Origin: a virus
Lineage: Duplodnaviria > Heunggongvirae > Uroviricota > Caudoviricetes
DNA length: 9,181 bases
IMG/VR virus record: IMGVR_UViG_2778261527_000006
Direction: 5' to 3' (one strand)
A program made the translations under genes and the position numbers. Of the stretch, positions 1 through 8,173 are shown piece by piece. Under the pieces are notes generated by a model. It was not told where the DNA came from. It was given only the letters and a program-made list of their open reading frames with translations, and searched no databases. Numbering within the stretch: position 1 is the stretch's first letter; every line of letters starts with the position of its first letter.

Positions 1-159
1 TCGACTATTCCATGAAGAAATCGCTTCAGATTTAGTTCGTTTTTCTGGTCCTTGGGCACCACATTTGCATGACACATAGCGCATTTTCCCTCTGATACTG
101 AATGAGTATCCGATGTTAAGCACAGTGGAACCACAGAATGGGCAGCGATAGAGATTCAT
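1..159 (-). CDS. Lar-family restriction alleviation protein, C-terminal end cut by the window edge
   Basis: Minus-strand ORF with ATG at 157-159 (rc), preceded by a strong SD (AAGGTGGA, about 7 nt spacing). Translation MNLYRCPFCGSTVLNIGYSFSIRGKMRYVSCKCGAQGPEKRTKSEAISSWNSR... has the C-P-F-C-G ... C-x-C-G-A ... A-I-x-x-W-N-x-R pattern typical of small Lar/RalR-type zinc-ribbon proteins. No stop codon before position 1, so the 3' end is missing. Confidence 0.65.
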   Translation of the reverse strand, partial: MNLYRCPFCGSTVLNIGYSFSIRGKMRYVSCKCGAQGPEKRTKSEAISSWNSR

Positions 160-257
160 AAATCATCCACCTTAGGCGCAGCTGAGACAGCAACATTCCA
201 GAACTCAGAAAACATATTGTATGCACCAGATAGATTGGAAGTGGCATACCCTCCAAG

Positions 258-491
258 CTAACTTCTAATCTGAACGGCTCTCATCATTTCCGGCGTTAAC
301 TCCTTCGGCACCATAACCCAACCATCCGGAGTTACCGGAGAGTTGCCATCCAGCGCGTTCAACTTGTAAGCCTGGCTTACAGGTTCGGCACTATGAAGCA
401 TGGCAGCGCGGCAGGCGTTCCAGCCTTGAACCTTAGCTATTGCCACAACTGCATCGGTAAAGAACATTCTCGCGGTATCTGGCTCCGGCAT
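258..491 (-). CDS. hypothetical phage early-region protein with repeated VP-x-E-(L/P)-T-P-E-M motif
   Basis: Minus-strand ORF immediately upstream of, and co-oriented with, the Lar-like gene. The C-terminus ...PDGWVMVPKELTPEMMRAVQIRS and an internal VPDEMPEPDTARMF resemble a motif I recall from small lambdoid-prophage proteins; the family name is not certain. The track ORF (258..551) begins at a TTG with no SD; the first in-frame ATG is at 491 with a weak GGA-type SD, so the start is uncertain. Confidence 0.4.
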   Translation of the reverse strand: MPEPDTARMFFTDAVVAIAKVQGWNACRAAMLHSAEPVSQAYKLNALDGNSPVTPDGWVMVPKELTPEMMRAVQIRS

Positions 492-592
492 TTCATCCGG
501 CACCGCTTGCTGCGGTATCAGGAGCCGGTGCAGAATATGCCAGGGCAACAATCTACTACTGGCAGTAACTTTTCTTCACTATGGGGTGATTA

Positions 593-3061: not shown

Positions 3062-5128
3062 ATGTCAGATATCACCGCAAATGTTGTGGTAAGCATGCCT
3101 TCGCAACTCTTCACTATGGCGCGTTCTTTTAAAGCCGTAGCCAATGGAAAAATTTATATCGGTAAAATTGACACGGACCCGGTAAATCCTGAAAACCAGA
3201 TTCCGGTATATCTGGAACGAGAAGATGGTAAACATGTTCAGGTAGAACAACCAATTGTTATTAACTCTGCCGGTTATCCTGTGTATAACGGACAGATCGC
3301 CAAGTTCGTTACAGTGCAAGGCCATTCTATGGCTGTTTATGATGCGTATGGTGCACAGCAATTTTATTTCCCAAATGTGTTGAAGTACGACCCAGACCAA
3401 TTTAAGTATGAGCTTTCATCTTCACTTGGTTCTGGGATGGTTGGCGTCCAGCCAATTGGAACTTTGTATGATCAATCATTGTATGTTACACCGGAACAAT
3501 TCGGCGCTGTTGGTGATGGGGTTAATGATGATACAGAATCTATAGTGTCTGCTATGAAATACTGTTCTTCTGGGAAAATTCGTTGGGTAAGAGGTAAAAA
3601 AGGAAGCACATATCTCGTTTCTCAGGTAGAAATACCTGTTGGCATAAAAAAAATAAGTGATCTTAGCCTGATTGTCACAGCACAGGGTGGTGTCTGCTTG
3701 TTTTCGCAAGGTACTTCCGGTCACACAGACCTTGAAATTAGTGATTGTTCCATTAATGCAAATGGTGTTGCCAGAGGAGGAATTCTTCTTAGCGCAACAA
3801 CTAGGTGCAAAATACTAAGAAACAGAGTATATGGTTTCGGTGTTGATGGAACTGAACGATATGGTATACGTATTGGAACAACAGATATCACATCACTAAA
3901 CTTATACGATACCATAGAAGGAAATACAATTGAGATGCCCATAGATCCTGATAGTGGTGCAGGAACAGTTGGTATTGCTGGTATATATTTAGTAGCACAA
4001 AACAACATAGACACTGAAACTGGAAGTGTAAAATGGAATTCGCAACACAAAACCATTCAGTACATAACTGTGTCAAACAACACCGTTATCAACGGAACTC
4101 ACAACGTGCAAGCTTTCGGGTTATTTAATGCTGAATTTACAGGGAATATACTAATTGGAGGTTCGCATCGTAATATAAATCTTGGAACTGGTTGCGAGCG
4201 TGTAAAAATAGAGGGAAATAGGCTAATCAATGCAGAATCATCAGCAATTATTTTTGGAGAATCTAGATATATACAGATATCAAACAACTATATACAGTCA
4301 GCCTCTACTTCTAGTTACATATCTGATGATGCAGCTATCCAGTTTGCACAAGGTGCATACAGTATAGACATAATAGGCAACATGATACTAGGTGACTGGA
4401 GATACGGAGTACATTGCTTTAACTCGCGATATGTTTCATTAAAAAATAATACAATAACAGCATCTGTAGCTTGTATAGGAATAGAATCATCACAGACGCT
4501 TAAATTACCTGATAATGCAATATACAGTTCCAGAAGGAGTGTTACCAAGATGATTAATGGAAGCACGACTGAGTATTCCATATCTGGAAACGTATATACA
4601 CCTAACGGTGATTCAGCATGTGCTATTTATCTTTGCCAGCTAAATGGTGTTGTTCTTGGTAATATAAATATATATGGAGAAACAATCCATCAGGCTGGTA
4701 ATTTCAGACACATATTATACTTAGTTGAAGATGATAGTTTAATGACAGGAATTTCTGCCATAGATATTTCAGCAAAAAATGCTAATTACTCACAGTACTA
4801 TAGCATTAGGGGAAGGACTCCTTTCTATAAAATAGATAACGTTACCGCTCTTGAGGACCCATCTATTGAATATTTTGCTCCGGGAGGCACATCTAGTGCA
4901 TTTGTCGGGCCAAGCATATACCTTGACAATAAAGTTGTAAGTTACTTTTCTAATGGAATTGATGGGCAAATAATACAAGTAAGAATGTCTATAGGATCAA
5001 AGTTAATTCATAATAACAAGCTTATAAGGTTAAGAGGAGAAACAGATATAGCGTCAATATCAGGCAACACAATTATAACACTAAAAAGACTGAGTGGTAT
5101 TTGGTTTGAAATTTCAAGGAGTATATAA
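3062..5128 (+). CDS. phage tailspike protein: P22 gp9-type N-terminal head-binding domain fused to a pectate-lyase-like right-handed beta-helix receptor-binding/depolymerase domain
   Basis: The N-terminus [97 protein letters not shown]...NVLKYDPDQ matches the P22 tailspike head-binding domain ([56 protein letters not shown]...VLKYDPDQ). Downstream, [25 protein letters not shown] is a pectate-lyase-3-type signature, followed by repeated beta-helix motifs ([73 protein letters not shown]). The track ORF begins at ATG 3014, but the ATG at 3062 has a GGAG SD at 3051-3054 and gives the canonical N-terminus. Confidence 0.9.
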
Positions 5129-5275: not shown

Positions 5276-6415
5276 TTACCCTGCGCAAAAATTGCGCAAA
5301 AAATCATTAAGATTTTCGCATCTTTTATTTCTTAGCATTTCTACACTCCTTTCATTATCCATAATCCAGTCAACTCTGTATTCCAATAATCTAGGTCTCT
5401 TTTCATCACTGAATGTTTTAACAGTTACAATTGATGAAATTAGAATGACCGTAGAAACTATAGCAATTGAATCGTAAGCGATTACGCTCTTTCTATATGT
5501 TGAAAGTATGTATCCAAACAAAAACGTCAATGGAATAAACATGTAATAGTAAAAGCGTGAAAATGCTGGTATAAAATAAATACCTATATGCAAGCATGCA
5601 AATATGAAAATTATATTCCATATTCTAGTGTATTCATCTTTACTTTTCCTGATTAGGAATCGCGTAATAATGATAAGATCAGCAATAATACCAAACCCAA
5701 AACCTACACTGCTGAGTGATTCTGAATAAAGAGATGCTTTACGCGCAAGCTCTACCCCAACTACAGGTATAGAGTAAACAAACTCAGTATTGCTCAAAAC
5801 AATACCACCAATTAATACCATTAAAGTTGTTATGCAAATACCTTTAATTACAAGCGGTTTTCTCTCTGAATAGTATACATGCCAGAATATCAGCACTATA
5901 ATTGCGGAGTAATGAAAAAGCGAAGCTATTAAAACAGACACTATAAATAGTCTGATTCTTTTGTCTAAAAGAAAATTAATTGAGTGGAAGCATATTACAA
6001 TAGCCACAAATTGACGTATTTGATCAACAACAAGAGACAGACCACCAAGCAAACACATGGCAAGCAATGTAGCAGGAATGTTTATAGGTATTGGTGCTTT
6101 TTTTAATGCAATAAAAGCGATGTAAAATGATAAAAGATAAAATATGAAAATAGCTGATTGAAAATTTATAGACAAATTTGCTAATACATAAAGATATATA
6201 TTGAATAGCAAATCGTAATTTATGGAGAACTCACTTTTAAATCCATCAAATACATAATAATAATTAACCCAATCAATTCCATTTGAATAGACAGCAGTAA
6301 AAATGCAAGAGCAGAATATTACATATGCCATTGCAAATAGTCGGTTAAATCTACATCTGAATGCACATATAAAAACGAAAGCAAGCGAAGTGAAGAAAAA
6401 AAATATCCAAATCAT
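5276..6415 (-). CDS. EpsG/Wzy-like polytopic inner-membrane protein (putative O-antigen polymerase / serotype-conversion protein)
   Basis: About 28-32% GC. The translation is highly hydrophobic with many predicted TM segments, and the N-terminal loop motif YSNGIDWVNYYYVFDGF resembles the G-x-D-(W/Y)-x-x-Y motif of EpsG-family / Wzy-type polymerases. No acyltransferase-3 (R-x-x-x-D-x-x-R-G) signature is seen. The track ORF starts at TTG 6439 with no SD; the first ATG at 6415 has an AGGT SD 6 nt upstream (379 aa from that start). Confidence 0.6.
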   Translation of the reverse strand: MIWIFFFFTSLAFVFICAFRCRFNRLFAMAYVIFCSCIFTAVYSNGIDWVNYYYVFDGFKSEFSINYDLLFNIYLYVLANLSINFQSAIFIFYLLSFYIAFIALKKAPIPINIPATLLAMCLLGGLSLVVDQIRQFVAIVICFHSINFLLDKRIRLFIVSVLIASLFHYSAIIVLIFWHVYYSERKPLVIKGICITTLMVLIGGIVLSNTEFVYSIPVVGVELARKASLYSESLSSVGFGFGIIADLIIITRFLIRKSKDEYTRIWNIIFIFACLHIGIYFIPAFSRFYYYMFIPLTFLFGYILSTYRKSVIAYDSIAIVSTVILISSIVTVKTFSDEKRPRLLEYRVDWIMDNERSVEMLRNKRCENLNDFLRNFCAG

Positions 6416-6439
6416 AAAATTACCTACAAAATTACACAA

Positions 6440-6518
6440 AATGAAGTCAAGTAGACATTTTGAAAAATGCTATTATAATAGCAAGAAAATCAACTAGTAA
6501 CCATAGTGAAAATCTTTA
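6440..6518 (-). promoter_or_regulatory. possible promoter region for the Wzy-like gene
   Basis: Perfect 12-bp palindrome CTATTATAATAG (6470-6481) containing a consensus TATAAT (minus strand, 6472-6477) 35-60 nt upstream of the candidate start codons. The -35 is poor (TTACTA), and TATAAT is frequent by chance in 30% GC DNA. Confidence 0.2.
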
Positions 6519-6722
6519 ATGCCTAGTGAAATTGTACAGTATATAGTTGCAGCAGTTACCATAATGATCGTCTACTGTCCAACGGTTTTGATTTGCATGC
6601 TTGTGGATTGGCTTCTAAGAAGCTATCGTATTGTTTCAAAAGAACAAAAAATAAATGGATTCATTGCTGGAAATGTCCTTTTTGTGTTCATTGCACCGAT
6701 ATTCCTGAACATGAATATGTAA
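6519..6722 (+). CDS. hypothetical small hydrophobic protein (67 aa, two predicted TM helices)
   Basis: ATG-initiated ORF in the gap between the Wzy-like gene and int. MPSEIVQYIVAAVTIMIVYCPTVLICMLVDWLLRSYRIVSKEQKINGFIAGNVLFVFIAPIFLNMNM has two hydrophobic segments. A 68-codon open frame is uncommon in 30% GC DNA, but the SD is weak and no homology is recognised. Confidence 0.25.
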   Translation: MPSEIVQYIVAAVTIMIVYCPTVLICMLVDWLLRSYRIVSKEQKINGFIAGNVLFVFIAPIFLNMNM

Positions 6723-7937
6723 TTATTTGGTTATGTTGACATTTTTGTTGTTTTTGCTGAGTGAATATAGCAATGTTGGTTGCTCCACCTTTTCATCAAC
6801 CCAATCCGCCCACCACTGCATCATTTCTCTGCGCTTATCGAGATACTGAGCATGGTTGTAAATCCCACGCACAGATCCGCCGTTGGCATGTGCCAGTTGC
6901 ACTTCAATAGCATCAGCAGGCCATTCGTGCTCGTTCATAATCGTGCTGAATTCATGCCTGAATCCGTGACCGCTTTCCAGACCCTCATAGCCGATTTGTT
7001 TGATCACAAGCAATACCGCGTTCTCGCAGATTGGCTTCTTCTTATCGTTGCGACCGGCAAAAACAAACTCTGATACTGGTTTGGTGATGGAGCTTAGCGT
7101 AGTGAGAAGTTCAACTACCTGGTCTGACATAGGAACCACATGAATTTTGCGTCCCTTCATCACACTGGCGTCGATGGTGATAATCCTGTTTTCAAAATCG
7201 ACGTTCTTCCATAGCATGGAACGAAGCTCTTTCGTTCTTAGGGCTGTGTAGCGTAAAACTTTGGTCGCAATGAGCGATACGATACTTCCTGAAAATGTTG
7301 CCAGTGCTTTGTTGAATGCCGGGATCTGGTCTGCAGGAAGAAACGGGAAGTTCTTCTTGCGGTATCCCTTCATGGCGTCAGCAAGGTCAGGTGCTGGGTT
7401 ATATTTAGCCCTTCCGGTGACAATAGCGTAACGGAAAACCTCGCCGCATCTTCTGCGGGCTTTGTTGGCTCGCTCCATTGCACCGCGATCTTCGAATCTT
7501 CGGATTACTTCCAGCAGTTGCATCGGCTCAATATCCTGAATCTCAAGACCGCCGATGATGGGTAAAATGTCGTCGTCAAACATTTTGGCAAGTTCGTTTG
7601 CATAGCCTACTGACCAGACTTGCTTCTTGTGCTCGTACCATTCCTTGTAAATCGCACTAAAGGAATTGTTGTTAGACGAAGCCTTTTTCGCCTTTACCGG
7701 ATCGATGCCAACCGAGATGTCTTTCCTCGCAGTCCATGTCTTATCCCTTGCTTCCTGCAAAGTCATAAGCGGATATTTTCCGACAGTCAGGATTTTCTCC
7801 TTACCGTCAATCTTGTAGCGAAGCTGCCATACCTTTTTCCCTGATACAGGGACATAAAGGTACAGGCCATTACCATCGAGTAGGCGGTATGGTTTTTCTT
7901 TCGGCTTTGCTGCTTCAATCTGCTTAACGGTGAGCAT
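6723..7937 (-). CDS. intS: site-specific tyrosine integrase (P4-type, tRNA-associated; IntS-like)
   Basis: The N-terminus MLTVKQIEAAKPKEKPYRLLDGNGLYLYVPVSGKKVWQLRYKIDGKEK matches the DUF4102 arm-binding domain of P4-family integrases. The catalytic region has HGFRHEF (H-x-x-R) and RGIYNHAQY (candidate catalytic Tyr). It lies directly beside the tRNA-Arg 3' end, as in the K-12 yfdC-argW-intS locus. The track start (7973) is a GTG; the ATG at 7937 gives the canonical N-terminus. Confidence 0.9.
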   Translation of the reverse strand: MLTVKQIEAAKPKEKPYRLLDGNGLYLYVPVSGKKVWQLRYKIDGKEKILTVGKYPLMTLQEARDKTWTARKDISVGIDPVKAKKASSNNNSFSAIYKEWYEHKKQVWSVGYANELAKMFDDDILPIIGGLEIQDIEPMQLLEVIRRFEDRGAMERANKARRRCGEVFRYAIVTGRAKYNPAPDLADAMKGYRKKNFPFLPADQIPAFNKALATFSGSIVSLIATKVLRYTALRTKELRSMLWKNVDFENRIITIDASVMKGRKIHVVPMSDQVVELLTTLSSITKPVSEFVFAGRNDKKKPICENAVLLVIKQIGYEGLESGHGFRHEFSTIMNEHEWPADAIEVQLAHANGGSVRGIYNHAQYLDKRREMMQWWADWVDEKVEQPTLLYSLSKNNKNVNITK

Positions 7938-8098: not shown

Positions 8099-8173
8099 TG
8101 GTGTCCCCTGCAGGAATCGAACCTGCAATTAGCCCTTAGGAGGGGCTCGTTATATCCATTTAACTAAGAGGAC
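8099..8173 (-). tRNA. argW: tRNA-Arg (anticodon CCU)
   Basis: The reverse complement reads GTCCTCTTAGTTAAATGGATATAACGAGCCCCTCCTAAGGGCTAATTGCAGGTTCGATTCCTGCAGGGGACACCA: a 7-bp acceptor stem (GTCCTCT/GGGGACA, one G-U pair), anticodon loop CT-CCT-AA, T-arm GGTTCGATTCC, encoded CCA. The 3' end faces the integrase gene. Confidence 0.95.

What the first reader, a model, noticed from the sequence alone, without database searches (positions are those of the whole stretch)
6519..6722. Unannotatable 67-aa two-TM ORF next to the Wzy-like gene: candidate host-polymerase inhibitor?
Phage polymerase-based seroconversion modules (D3 iap, epsilon15 gp21) pair the new Wzy with a small hydrophobic peptide that inhibits the host polymerase. 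A 67-aa ORF with two clear hydrophobic helices sits in the 283-bp gap between the Wzy-like gene and int, on the opposite strand and ending exactly at the int stop codon. It may be a small membrane protein of that kind, or it may be a chance ORF.
Basis: inference. Interest (0 to 1): 0.45.

Follow-up and report, generated by a model that had tools for sequence, protein, structure and literature searches.

The report
Small membrane gene partnering phage O-antigen polymerases
The 67-codon ORF is a real, conserved gene for a two-helix membrane protein that always sits back-to-back with a prophage-borne O-antigen polymerase gene, which makes it a good but untested candidate for the factor that silences the host's own polymerase when the prophage changes the cell's serotype.

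Summary
The ORF exists exactly as described (6519-6722, +). On its own it is only mildly unusual: 4-8% of shuffles give an ORF this long. Comparison with related loci settles that it is a gene. Homologues of 64-67 aa, 66-72% identical and without internal indels (one subfamily is 3 residues shorter just after the start Met), lie divergently upstream of Wzy genes in E. coli and Enterobacter prophages. Substitutions fall mainly at third codon positions (pN 0.16-0.22, pS 0.67-0.84, in this frame only). A sigma-70 promoter (TAGACA-16-TATAAT, 6452-6479) is conserved.

The partner is either an EpsG-type Wzy or a Wzy (TIGR04370) with no detectable sequence similarity to it. The pair travels with a shared tailspike receptor domain on three phage chassis. 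In an epsilon15-like prophage the pair replaces epsilon15's beta-polymerase and inhibitor genes. The one complete E. coli genome with the cassette has an intact O133 cluster whose wzy is of the other type. Chromosomal Wzy genes of both types have no small-ORF homologue nearby.

There is no sequence similarity to epsilon15 gp22, D3 Iap or WzzB. Inhibition of the host polymerase is therefore plausible but inferred. The abutment with the int stop codon results from a ~340-bp deletion variant.

The parts
6519..6722 (+). CDS of a 67-aa two-helix inner-membrane protein. It belongs to a new, narrow family of 64-67 aa. Invariant residues: V18 Y19 C20 P21, C26 M27, D30 W31, R34, Y36, V39 S40 K41, Q43, I45 N46 G47 F48, G51 N52 (G47xxxG51), A59 P60, N64 M65 N66.
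   Evidence: Purifying selection acts in this frame only (pN 0.16-0.22 against pS 0.67-0.84). Differences by codon position are 16/8/32. No internal indels among the homologues (one subfamily lacks 3 residues just after the start Met).
6452..6479 (+). Sigma-70-type promoter facing the small ORF: TAGACA (6452-6457), 16-nt spacer, TATAAT (6474-6479). The inferred transcription start is near 6486.
   Evidence: 11 of 12 consensus matches. The hexamers and spacing are conserved as TGGACA-16-TAGAAT in loci ~30% diverged, while the spacer varies. Activity was not tested.
6498..6510 (+). Conserved 13-mer TAACCATAGTGAA in the 5' leader. It contains the in-frame TGA (6507-6509) that fixes the start codon. 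Its role is unknown. There is no canonical Shine-Dalgarno sequence.
   Evidence: invariant in window, L012, L014, L015 and L022.
5276..6415 (-). EpsG-family (PF14897) O-antigen polymerase (Wzy) gene, 379 aa from the conserved ATG with an AGGT/AGGA Shine-Dalgarno sequence. Alternative starts are 6439 (TTG) and 6331 (PGAP). It is the divergent partner of the small ORF.
   Evidence: It is 43-46% identical to the only polymerase candidates in Enterobacter chromosomal O-antigen clusters. It has co-diverged with the small ORF.
3062..5128 (+). Tailspike. The P22-type head-binding N-terminus is joined to a ~570-aa receptor domain, and that receptor domain is shared by every phage chassis that carries the Wzy plus small-ORF pair.
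   Evidence: 62% identity to the epsilon15-like L012 tailspike and 37% to the Enterobacter L022/L028 tailspikes over the C-terminal ~570-590 aa.
6723..7937 (-). IntS-type integrase, 404-aa form. Its last 19 codons read into cassette DNA because ~340 bp, including the normal stop and a conserved hairpin, are missing.
8099..8173 (-). tRNA-Arg(CCT), argW, the prophage attachment site. It places the cassette at the int-proximal end of a P22-like prophage.

Best explanation
Shown. Positions 6519-6722 encode a real 67-aa protein predicted to form a two-helix membrane hairpin. By the positive-inside rule, the basic loop would face the cytoplasm and both termini the periplasm. The gene has its own conserved sigma-70 promoter. 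Together with the divergently transcribed polymerase gene it forms a two-gene unit. That unit, joined to a shared tailspike receptor domain, has been grafted onto P22-like, epsilon15-like and a third Enterobacter prophage chassis. The polymerase partner can be either of two Wzy classes with no detectable sequence similarity, EpsG-type or TIGR04370-type. Chromosomal copies of both classes lack the small gene.

Inferred. The unit is a polymerase-swap seroconversion module of the epsilon15/D3 kind. The prophage supplies a second Wzy that joins the host's O-units (O133-like) by a different linkage. The small protein inserts in the inner membrane and, through its conserved helix faces (VYCP..C, GxxxG-N, AP), binds the resident polymerisation machinery, either the host Wzy or its coupling to Wzz. 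This shuts the resident polymerase down so that the incoming one takes over. The new surface is then no longer recognised by the phage's own tailspike.

It is an analogue, not a homologue, of epsilon15 gp22 and D3 Iap.
For: Coding:
- Homologues are 66-72% identical in protein, 64-67 aa long and have no internal indels; the T-type subfamily is 3 residues shorter just after the start Met.
- Nucleotide differences by codon position are 16/8/32.
- pN is 0.16-0.22 and pS 0.67-0.84 in this frame. The ratio is ~1 or higher in four of the other five frames; the antisense frame that shares its wobble positions gives 0.16-0.42.
- Constraint and divergence track the neighbouring Wzy gene pair by pair.

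Expression signals:
- An 11/12 sigma-70 promoter is present and its hexamers are conserved.

Linkage to polymerases:
- The ORF is divergent from an EpsG-type Wzy in the window, L002-L016 and L022-L026, and from a TIGR04370 Wzy in L027-L030.
- A cassette breakpoint falls inside the ORF at about codon 15, yet the reading frame and the hydrophobic helix are kept.

Module equivalence:
- L012 is epsilon15-syntenic (gp16/17 97-98%, gp18, gp19, gp23, holin). In it the EpsG gene and the small ORF stand in place of the beta-polymerase gp21 and the two-TM 66-aa inhibitor gp22.

Host context:
- Strain A23 has an intact O133 cluster.
- Its wzx, GT2 and GT4 are ~70% identical to those of Enterobacter clusters that use an EpsG-type Wzy.
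- Its own wzy is TIGR04370-like, 41% identical to the phage Wzy of L028.
- The cassette is in 1 of 5426 complete E. coli genomes, and that genome is one of only two carrying O133 wzy.

Not a polymerase subunit:
- No homologue lies next to chromosomal Wzy genes of either class.

Precedent:
- D3 Iap and the epsilon15 inhibitor.
Against: - There is no sequence or profile similarity to epsilon15 gp22, D3 Iap or WzzB, so the function rests on context alone.
- Nearly the same C-terminal 50 residues accompany both Wzy classes, and two prophages with 96%-identical tailspikes carry different classes. A class-specific inhibitor of the host polymerase would be expected to differ more.
- Orientation is divergent, unlike epsilon15 and D3.
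- The EpsG-linked forms have no canonical Shine-Dalgarno sequence.
- An unrelated Wzy cassette at argW has no small membrane ORF, so such a partner is not obligatory.
- The host polymerase class was checked in one genome only.
- In the window variant int transcription would run antisense through the ORF.
- No expression or phenotype data exist.
Confidence: 0.5

Rival explanations
1. Positive accessory factor or chain-length modulator. The small protein helps the incoming polymerase work in a foreign cell, for example by coupling it to the host Wzz, WaaL or Wzx, or by setting modal length. It does not inhibit the resident Wzy.
For: The same protein (C-terminal 50 residues >85% identical) accompanies two Wzy classes with no detectable sequence similarity. 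That fits a partner of shared host machinery. It has co-diverged tightly with the EpsG gene. D3 Iap itself acts at the Wzy-Wzz interface.
Against: Chromosomal Wzy genes of both classes function in O-antigen clusters without any homologue. No similarity to WzzB was found. In the epsilon15-like prophage the slot it fills is that of an inhibitor.
Confidence: 0.2
2. A membrane protein unrelated to O-antigen synthesis, such as a superinfection-exclusion or injection-blocking protein, a toxic or lysis-modulating peptide, or another lysogenic-conversion factor. It would simply share the moron slot beside the tailspike.
For: It has its own promoter and is transcribed away from the Wzy gene. In epsilon15-like prophages it lies 122 nt upstream of the gp23/holin genes on the same strand. 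Small hydrophobic phage proteins have many roles.
Against: It lies next to lysis genes in only one of four contexts. It has no PHROG, Pfam, NCBIfam or PADLOC match. Wherever the partner gene is still present it is a Wzy; the one exception, L021, has lost it through an IS5-associated deletion. This holds even where the cassette was swapped by recombination inside the ORF. Prophage remnants keep the EpsG gene and the small ORF together after losing nearly everything else.
Confidence: 0.12
3. A chance ORF in AT-rich intergenic DNA that is really just the promoter region of the Wzy gene.
For: 4-8% of shuffles give an ORF of equal length. PGAP does not call it. T-rich DNA readily encodes hydrophobic stretches. 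There is no strong Shine-Dalgarno sequence.
Against: Synonymous sites are saturated while the protein is ~70% conserved, without internal indels or stops, across five lineages. The pN/pS ratio is 0.13-0.27 (uncorrected) in this frame against ~1 or above in four of the other five frames. The overlapping 48-codon ORF in another frame shows no constraint. The reading frame is preserved across a recombination junction.
Confidence: 0.02

Closest known systems
Salmonella phage epsilon15 alpha-polymerase inhibitor (AAO06085.1, gp22 by gene order), paired with beta-polymerase gp21
   Same: It is a small (66 aa) two-TM protein encoded beside a phage Wzy next to the tailspike. In an epsilon15-syntenic E. 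coli prophage (L012) the EpsG-type Wzy gene and the 67-aa ORF sit exactly where gp21 and gp22 sit, between the tailspike and gp23/holin.
   Different: No sequence or profile similarity. gp22 has a long charged C-terminal tail and is co-directional with its polymerase. The present ORF ends in the membrane (NMNM), has a basic central loop, and is divergently transcribed from its own promoter. Its partner polymerases are EpsG-type or TIGR04370-type; tblastn with epsilon15 gp21 found no match in L012, L014, L022, L028 or the window.
Pseudomonas phage D3 Iap (inhibitor of alpha-polymerase, 31 aa), with Wzy-beta
   Same: It is a hydrophobic peptide in a prophage seroconverting unit that also brings a second Wzy. 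The host keeps its own wzy.
   Different: Iap is a 31-aa peptide reported to mimic the second transmembrane region of Wzz. The present protein is 67 aa with a predicted two-helix hairpin and shows no similarity to Iap or to E. coli WzzB. The hosts are Enterobacteriaceae.
P22/Sf6-type seroconversion cassettes between tailspike and int at argW (gtrABC, oac)
   Same: Same chromosomal slot and same logic: an O-antigen-modifying moron next to a tailspike that recognises the unmodified antigen. Other E. coli genomes carry acyltransferase, gtr, DUF2142, DUF6056 or other Wzy genes at this position.
   Different: Those cassettes decorate the O-unit (glucosyl or acetyl groups). This one carries a polymerase plus a small membrane protein, a combination the E. 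coli O-antigen review mentions only as a hypothetical possibility.

Membership tests
epsilon15 gp22-type alpha-polymerase inhibitor | Sequence or profile similarity to epsilon15 AAO06085.1 | tested here: not met
   hhalign of the family profile against gp22 gave probability 9%, with only a 12-residue hydrophobic match.
epsilon15 gp22-type alpha-polymerase inhibitor | About 66 aa with two transmembrane helices | tested here: met
   67 aa. Helices 2-35 and 47-65. gp22 is annotated as having two TM domains.
epsilon15 gp22-type alpha-polymerase inhibitor | Encoded next to a phage Wzy, between the tailspike and the lysis genes of an epsilon15-like genome | tested here: met
   The homologue in the epsilon15-syntenic prophage L012 is in this position, but in inverted orientation. 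In the window itself the chassis is P22-like.
epsilon15 gp22-type alpha-polymerase inhibitor | Blocks the resident O-antigen polymerase | not testable with these tools
   This needs LPS profiling after expression or deletion.
D3 Iap | Sequence similarity to Iap, or mimicry of a Wzz transmembrane segment | tested here: not met
   hhalign against Iap gave probability 0.3% and against E. coli A23 WzzB 0.2%.
D3 Iap | A ~31-aa single-helix peptide | tested here: not met
   67 aa with two helices.
D3 Iap | Part of a prophage unit that brings a second Wzy into a host that keeps its own wzy | tested here: met
   An EpsG-type Wzy is adjacent. Host A23 has an intact O133 wzy of a different class. Only one genome was checked.
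New 64-67-aa family (P0001, P0018-P0024) | Full-length alignment with the invariant VYCP, C-M, DW, VSK-Q-INGF, GN, AP and NMN positions, next to a prophage Wzy | tested here: met
   The family has 8 clusters among 5.8 billion proteins and one representative at 50% clustering among 1.84 billion.
Holin, antiholin or other lysis proteins | Similarity to a holin family and constant linkage to lysis genes | tested here: not met
   No Pfam or PHROG match. It lies beside lysis genes only in the epsilon15-like context.
Wzy O-antigen polymerase (neighbour gene 5276-6415) | Polytopic EpsG/Wzy-family protein whose relatives occupy the polymerase position of Wzx/Wzy-dependent O-antigen clusters | tested here: met
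   PF14897, E = 1.4e-27. Relatives 43-46% identical lie between the glycosyltransferases and gnd in Enterobacter clusters that also hold wzx and wzz. Polymerase activity was not tested.

The most novel reading that the evidence does not exclude
The 64-67-aa protein is a class-independent 'polymerase switch'. It would be a natural enterobacterial inhibitor that silences whichever resident Wzy (or its Wzz coupling) is present, while sparing the incoming polymerase, be it EpsG-type or TIGR04370-type. Phages could then flip the linkage of O133-like O-antigens in both directions between E. coli and Enterobacter. It would be the first such inhibitor family in E. coli and a lead for blocking O-antigen polymerisation.
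Probability: 0.3. Interest if true: 0.75.

Novelty: new variant of a known kind. Interest (0 to 1): 0.55.

Why it matters
Polymerase-swap seroconversion is known in molecular detail only from Pseudomonas phage D3 and Salmonella phage epsilon15. For E. coli, the O-antigen review cited here mentions a second wzy plus a polymerase inhibitor only as a hypothetical explanation.

This work defines a new, unannotated small-protein family that marks such modules in E. coli and Enterobacter. RefSeq's PGAP annotation does not call the gene. The module moves as a tailspike-receptor-domain, Wzy and small-protein package across unrelated phage chassis. It also points to an apparent exchange of two alternative polymerases for one O-unit family.

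If the protein does inhibit a resident Wzy or its Wzz coupling, it would be a compact natural inhibitor of O-antigen polymerisation in Enterobacteriaceae. It would also explain some discrepancies between wzy-based serotype prediction and observed serology.

Tried and rejected
- The word-index protein search with the single sequence found only the sequence itself. Exhaustive phmmer against 1.84 billion representatives found one relative. The homologues were found instead by walking from diverged EpsG genes to their neighbours.
- Pfam, PHROGs, NCBIfam, PADLOC and PDB sequence searches of the small protein gave no match.
- Rfam found nothing in the gap.
- blastn and tblastn against 50,697 phage records gave no match for the ORF or for the EpsG gene.
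- GTDB species representatives gave none. IMG/VR gave one identical copy, which is IS5-disrupted, and no relatives of either Wzy.
- The overlapping 48-codon ORF 6593-6739 is also open in L012. It was rejected as coding because pN/pS is >=1.3 in that frame.
- The 64-codon ORF 6303-6497 is antisense to the EpsG N-terminus and was treated as a shadow ORF.
- The idea that every argW Wzy cassette carries a small membrane ORF was rejected: SZQ1 has none.
- A minus-strand sigma-70 promoter for the EpsG gene was not found.
- The terminator-like hairpin at 6609-6625 lies inside the ORF and was judged to be chance.
- I could not reach the O-antigen clusters of the Enterobacter genomes that carry the module, so the reciprocal host/phage polymerase pattern is shown for one E. 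coli genome only.
- The papers on the epsilon15 genome and on the Iap mechanism were not held.

Full report
**Setting**

The window is the int-proximal end of a P22-like prophage at argW in E. coli. Its features are:
- a gp16-like ejection protein (593-2590, +);
- mnt (2680-2973, -);
- a tailspike (3062-5128, +);
- an EpsG-family membrane protein (5276-6415, -);
- the small ORF (6519-6722, +);
- IntS (6723-7937, -);
- tRNA-Arg(CCT) (8099-8173, -);
- yfdC.

DNA between the tailspike and int is 27-32% G+C, against ~48% in the flanks. Among 5426 complete E. coli genomes only strain A23 has the 6440-6760 stretch, at 100% identity. PGAP annotates the tailspike, the EpsG gene and intS there, but not the small ORF. 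Other genomes hold acyltransferase, gtr, DUF2142, DUF6056 or other Wzy genes in the same slot. This is therefore the variable seroconversion slot of these prophages.

**The observation**

The ORF, its two hydrophobic segments and its stop abutting the int stop are all present. Length alone is weak evidence: 3.7% (ATG starts) to 7.5% (any start) of dinucleotide shuffles of 6416-6722 give an ORF at least as long.

The abutment with int is an accident. In L002, L003, L006 and L007 the identical ORF is followed by a 380-bp spacer and a 385-aa int ending in ...DEKVE. The window type lacks ~340 bp, including that stop and a hairpin conserved in other argW prophages. As a result int reads 19 extra codons into cassette DNA.

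**It is a gene**

Sequence searches with the ORF alone found only itself, plus one relative at 70% identity. I therefore searched with the neighbouring EpsG protein. It has relatives at 60-66% identity, and each of them has a 67-codon ORF divergently upstream. A profile search then gave eight clusters in all, 64-67 aa long, from E. coli, Enterobacter cloacae and metagenomes. One source names its copy 'uncharacterized membrane protein'.

The evidence for coding is as follows.
- The proteins are 66-72% identical to the window's. They have no internal indels (one subfamily lacks 3 residues just after the start Met) and 32 invariant positions.
- Nucleotide differences fall 16/8/32 on codon positions 1/2/3.
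- By Nei-Gojobori counting, pN is 0.16-0.22 and pS 0.67-0.84 (saturated) in this frame.
- Four of the other five frames give ratios near or above 1, including the frame of the overlapping 48-codon ORF. The antisense frame that shares wobble positions is intermediate, as expected.
- Pair by pair, identity, pN and pS match those of the adjacent EpsG gene. The two genes have therefore evolved as one unit under similar constraint.

An 11/12 sigma-70 promoter (TAGACA-16-TATAAT, 6452-6479) faces the ORF. Its hexamers and spacing are kept (TGGACA-16-TAGAAT) in loci whose spacer has diverged.

Two caveats apply. There is no canonical Shine-Dalgarno sequence; instead an invariant 13-mer, TAACCATAGTGAA (6498-6510), of unknown role precedes the ATG. 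All 22 E. coli copies of the window type are identical over 6416-6760, so within that lineage there is no information.

**What it travels with**

The pair occurs in four contexts.
1. P22-like prophages at argW: the window and L002-L011.
2. Epsilon15-like prophages in E. coli, next to yfgI: L012-L014.
3. Prophages in Enterobacter or E. coli with a Tail_spike_N tailspike, a gtr cassette, the EpsG gene and the small ORF, followed by a LexA-boxed umuDC-like operon: L022-L026, with L015/L016 similar.
4. The same kind of prophage, but with a 380-aa TIGR04370 'oligosaccharide repeat unit polymerase' in place of the gtr genes and the EpsG gene: L027-L030.

The TIGR04370 protein has no detectable similarity to the EpsG protein. 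L022 and L028 are 87-91% identical in DNA on both sides of the cassette. Homology resumes at about codon 15 of the small ORF. The L028 form keeps the reading frame and a hydrophobic N-terminus (MISEWVVLTIGVLIVYCP...). The small gene is thus the fixed edge of a swappable polymerase cassette and stays intact through the swap.

The C-terminal ~570 residues of the tailspike are also shared across the chassis:
- window against L012, 62%;
- window against L022/L028, 37%;
- L012 against L022, 40%.

The N-terminal adaptor domains differ. The tailspikes of SZQ1 and epsilon15 share only their N-termini with their chassis mates.

**Comparison with epsilon15 and D3**

The epsilon15 record lists, in order: the tailspike; the beta-polymerase (392 aa, minus strand); the 'alpha polymerase inhibitor' (66 aa, two TM, minus strand); then gp23, holin and endolysin.

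L012 matches epsilon15 in gp16/gp17 (97-98%), gp18, gp19, the tailspike N-terminus, gp23 and holin. Between the tailspike and gp23 it carries the EpsG gene and the 67-aa ORF instead. The small ORF is inverted relative to gp22 and lies 122 nt upstream of gp23 on the same strand.

Neither gp22 nor D3 Iap (31 aa) resembles the new family. E. coli WzzB, whose transmembrane segment Iap is reported to mimic, does not resemble it either.

**Host side**

EpsG relatives at 43-46% identity are chromosomal. They sit between the glycosyltransferases and gnd in Wzx/Wzy-type O-antigen clusters of Enterobacter kobei, E. huaxiensis, E. ludwigii and E. hormaechei/cloacae, where they are the only polymerase candidate.

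Strain A23 has an intact O133 cluster. Its wzx, GT2 and GT4 are 69-72% identical to those Enterobacter genes. Its wzy, however, has no detectable similarity to EpsG and is 41% identical (E = 2e-104) to the phage-borne TIGR04370 Wzy of L028. Related O-units thus appear to have two alternative polymerases. The class that is chromosomal in one host is phage-borne elsewhere, and the small gene accompanies the phage-borne copy only; tblastn finds nothing in the chromosomal clusters.

O133 wzy occurs in 2 of 5426 complete genomes, and the single genome with the cassette is one of them. By my arithmetic the chance of that is about 4e-4 if the two were independent.

The other O133 genome, TB06052, has at argW a gtr-type cassette with the same gene sizes (413 aa, 141 aa, gtrB) as the one beside the EpsG gene in L022.

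I could not check the resident polymerase in the Enterobacter hosts.

**Interpretation**

That this is a real small membrane-protein gene belonging to a prophage O-antigen polymerase module is well supported; I put it above 0.9.

That it inhibits the resident polymerase is the best-fitting mechanism, at about 0.5. The arguments for it are:
- it replaces an inhibitor gene position for position;
- it is absent from chromosomal clusters;
- it coexists with an intact resident Wzy of another class;
- it has conserved helix-packing features (G47xxxG51, N52, P21, P60).

Against it: the protein is nearly the same whichever polymerase class it accompanies, and prophages with 96%-identical tailspikes carry either class. 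That fits a target shared by all hosts, such as Wzz coupling, the ligase or the flippase, at least as well as a specific Wzy. SZQ1 shows that a small partner is not obligatory.

The rivals are an accessory or chain-length role (0.2), an unrelated membrane function (0.12) and a chance ORF (0.02).

**Decay and annotation**

- IS1 truncates the tailspike in A23 and replaces it in L038, while the EpsG gene, the small ORF and int survive.
- IS1 sits in codon 4 of the ORF in one genome (P0002).
- IS5 sits at CTAG 6494-6497 in the IMG/VR copy, which has lost the tailspike and the EpsG gene.
- No sequenced phage isolate carries either gene.
- I found no paper describing this family.
- The E. coli O-antigen review mentions a second wzy plus an inhibitor only as a possibility.

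Noticed in passing
window 3062-5128; L012:7170-9530; L022:1240-3372; L028:4617-6749: The C-terminal ~570-aa receptor domain of the tailspike is shared across three phage chassis whose N-terminal adaptor domains are unrelated (62% and 37-40% identity). It always accompanies the Wzy plus small-ORF pair, which suggests one O-antigen-specific super-module.
   Followed up: partly
L036:12125-16827 (E. coli A23 O133 cluster) compared with L017-L020: O133 wzx, GT2 and GT4 are ~70% identical to those of Enterobacter O-antigen clusters, but the polymerases show no detectable similarity (TIGR04370-like against EpsG-type). Each class is also found on prophages.
   Followed up: partly
window 6723-6790; L002:10205-10585; L033:6880-6975: The window's int lacks its normal stop and a conserved downstream hairpin (CACAAAGCTTTGCA...TGCAAGGCTTTGT), which gives it a 19-aa C-terminal extension. 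Transcription of int may therefore run antisense through the small ORF and on into the EpsG gene.
   Followed up: partly
window 6498-6510: The invariant 13-mer TAACCATAGTGAA just upstream of the start codon is conserved in all EpsG-linked loci. A similar TAACCATTATGGTGA lies beside the Wzy start in L028. Its role is unknown.
   Followed up: no
L021:6927-7975; P0002; L001:4966-5663; L038:4395-5092: Insertion sequences recur in this cassette. IS5 sits at CTAG between the promoter and the ATG. An IS1 end is fused into codon 4 of the small ORF. IS1 truncates or replaces the tailspike, while the EpsG gene, the small ORF and int stay intact.
   Followed up: partly
L015, L022, L028: about 50-70 nt downstream of the small ORF stop: LexA-box-like palindromes (CTGT-N8-ACAG) precede a 102-aa ORF and an umuD/umuC-like operon at the prophage edge in Enterobacter and E. 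coli.
   Followed up: no
L047:48245-50000 (E. coli TB06052, argW prophage remnant): The only other O133 complete genome carries a gtr-type cassette at argW (413 aa, 141 aa, gtrB). The gene sizes match the cassette that lies beside the EpsG gene and the small ORF in L022.
   Followed up: no
window 1-592: The sequence upstream of the gp16-like gene is not the expected ejection-protein gene. In a related genome it is annotated as Lar and dATP/dGTP pyrophosphohydrolase pseudogenes, so the window's prophage is probably internally deleted.
   Followed up: no
cluster of P0009 (P0034, P0035 and others): In many Enterobacter kobei contigs the chromosomal EpsG-type wzy appears as two fragments of ~190-230 aa, which may mean a pseudogenised resident polymerase in one lineage.
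   Followed up: no
window 6593-6739 (+) and 6303-6497 (+): Two further ORFs are also open in diverged homologues. One (48 codons) overlaps the small gene in another frame. The other (64 codons) is antisense to the EpsG N-terminus. The first shows no coding constraint; the second was not tested.
   Followed up: partly
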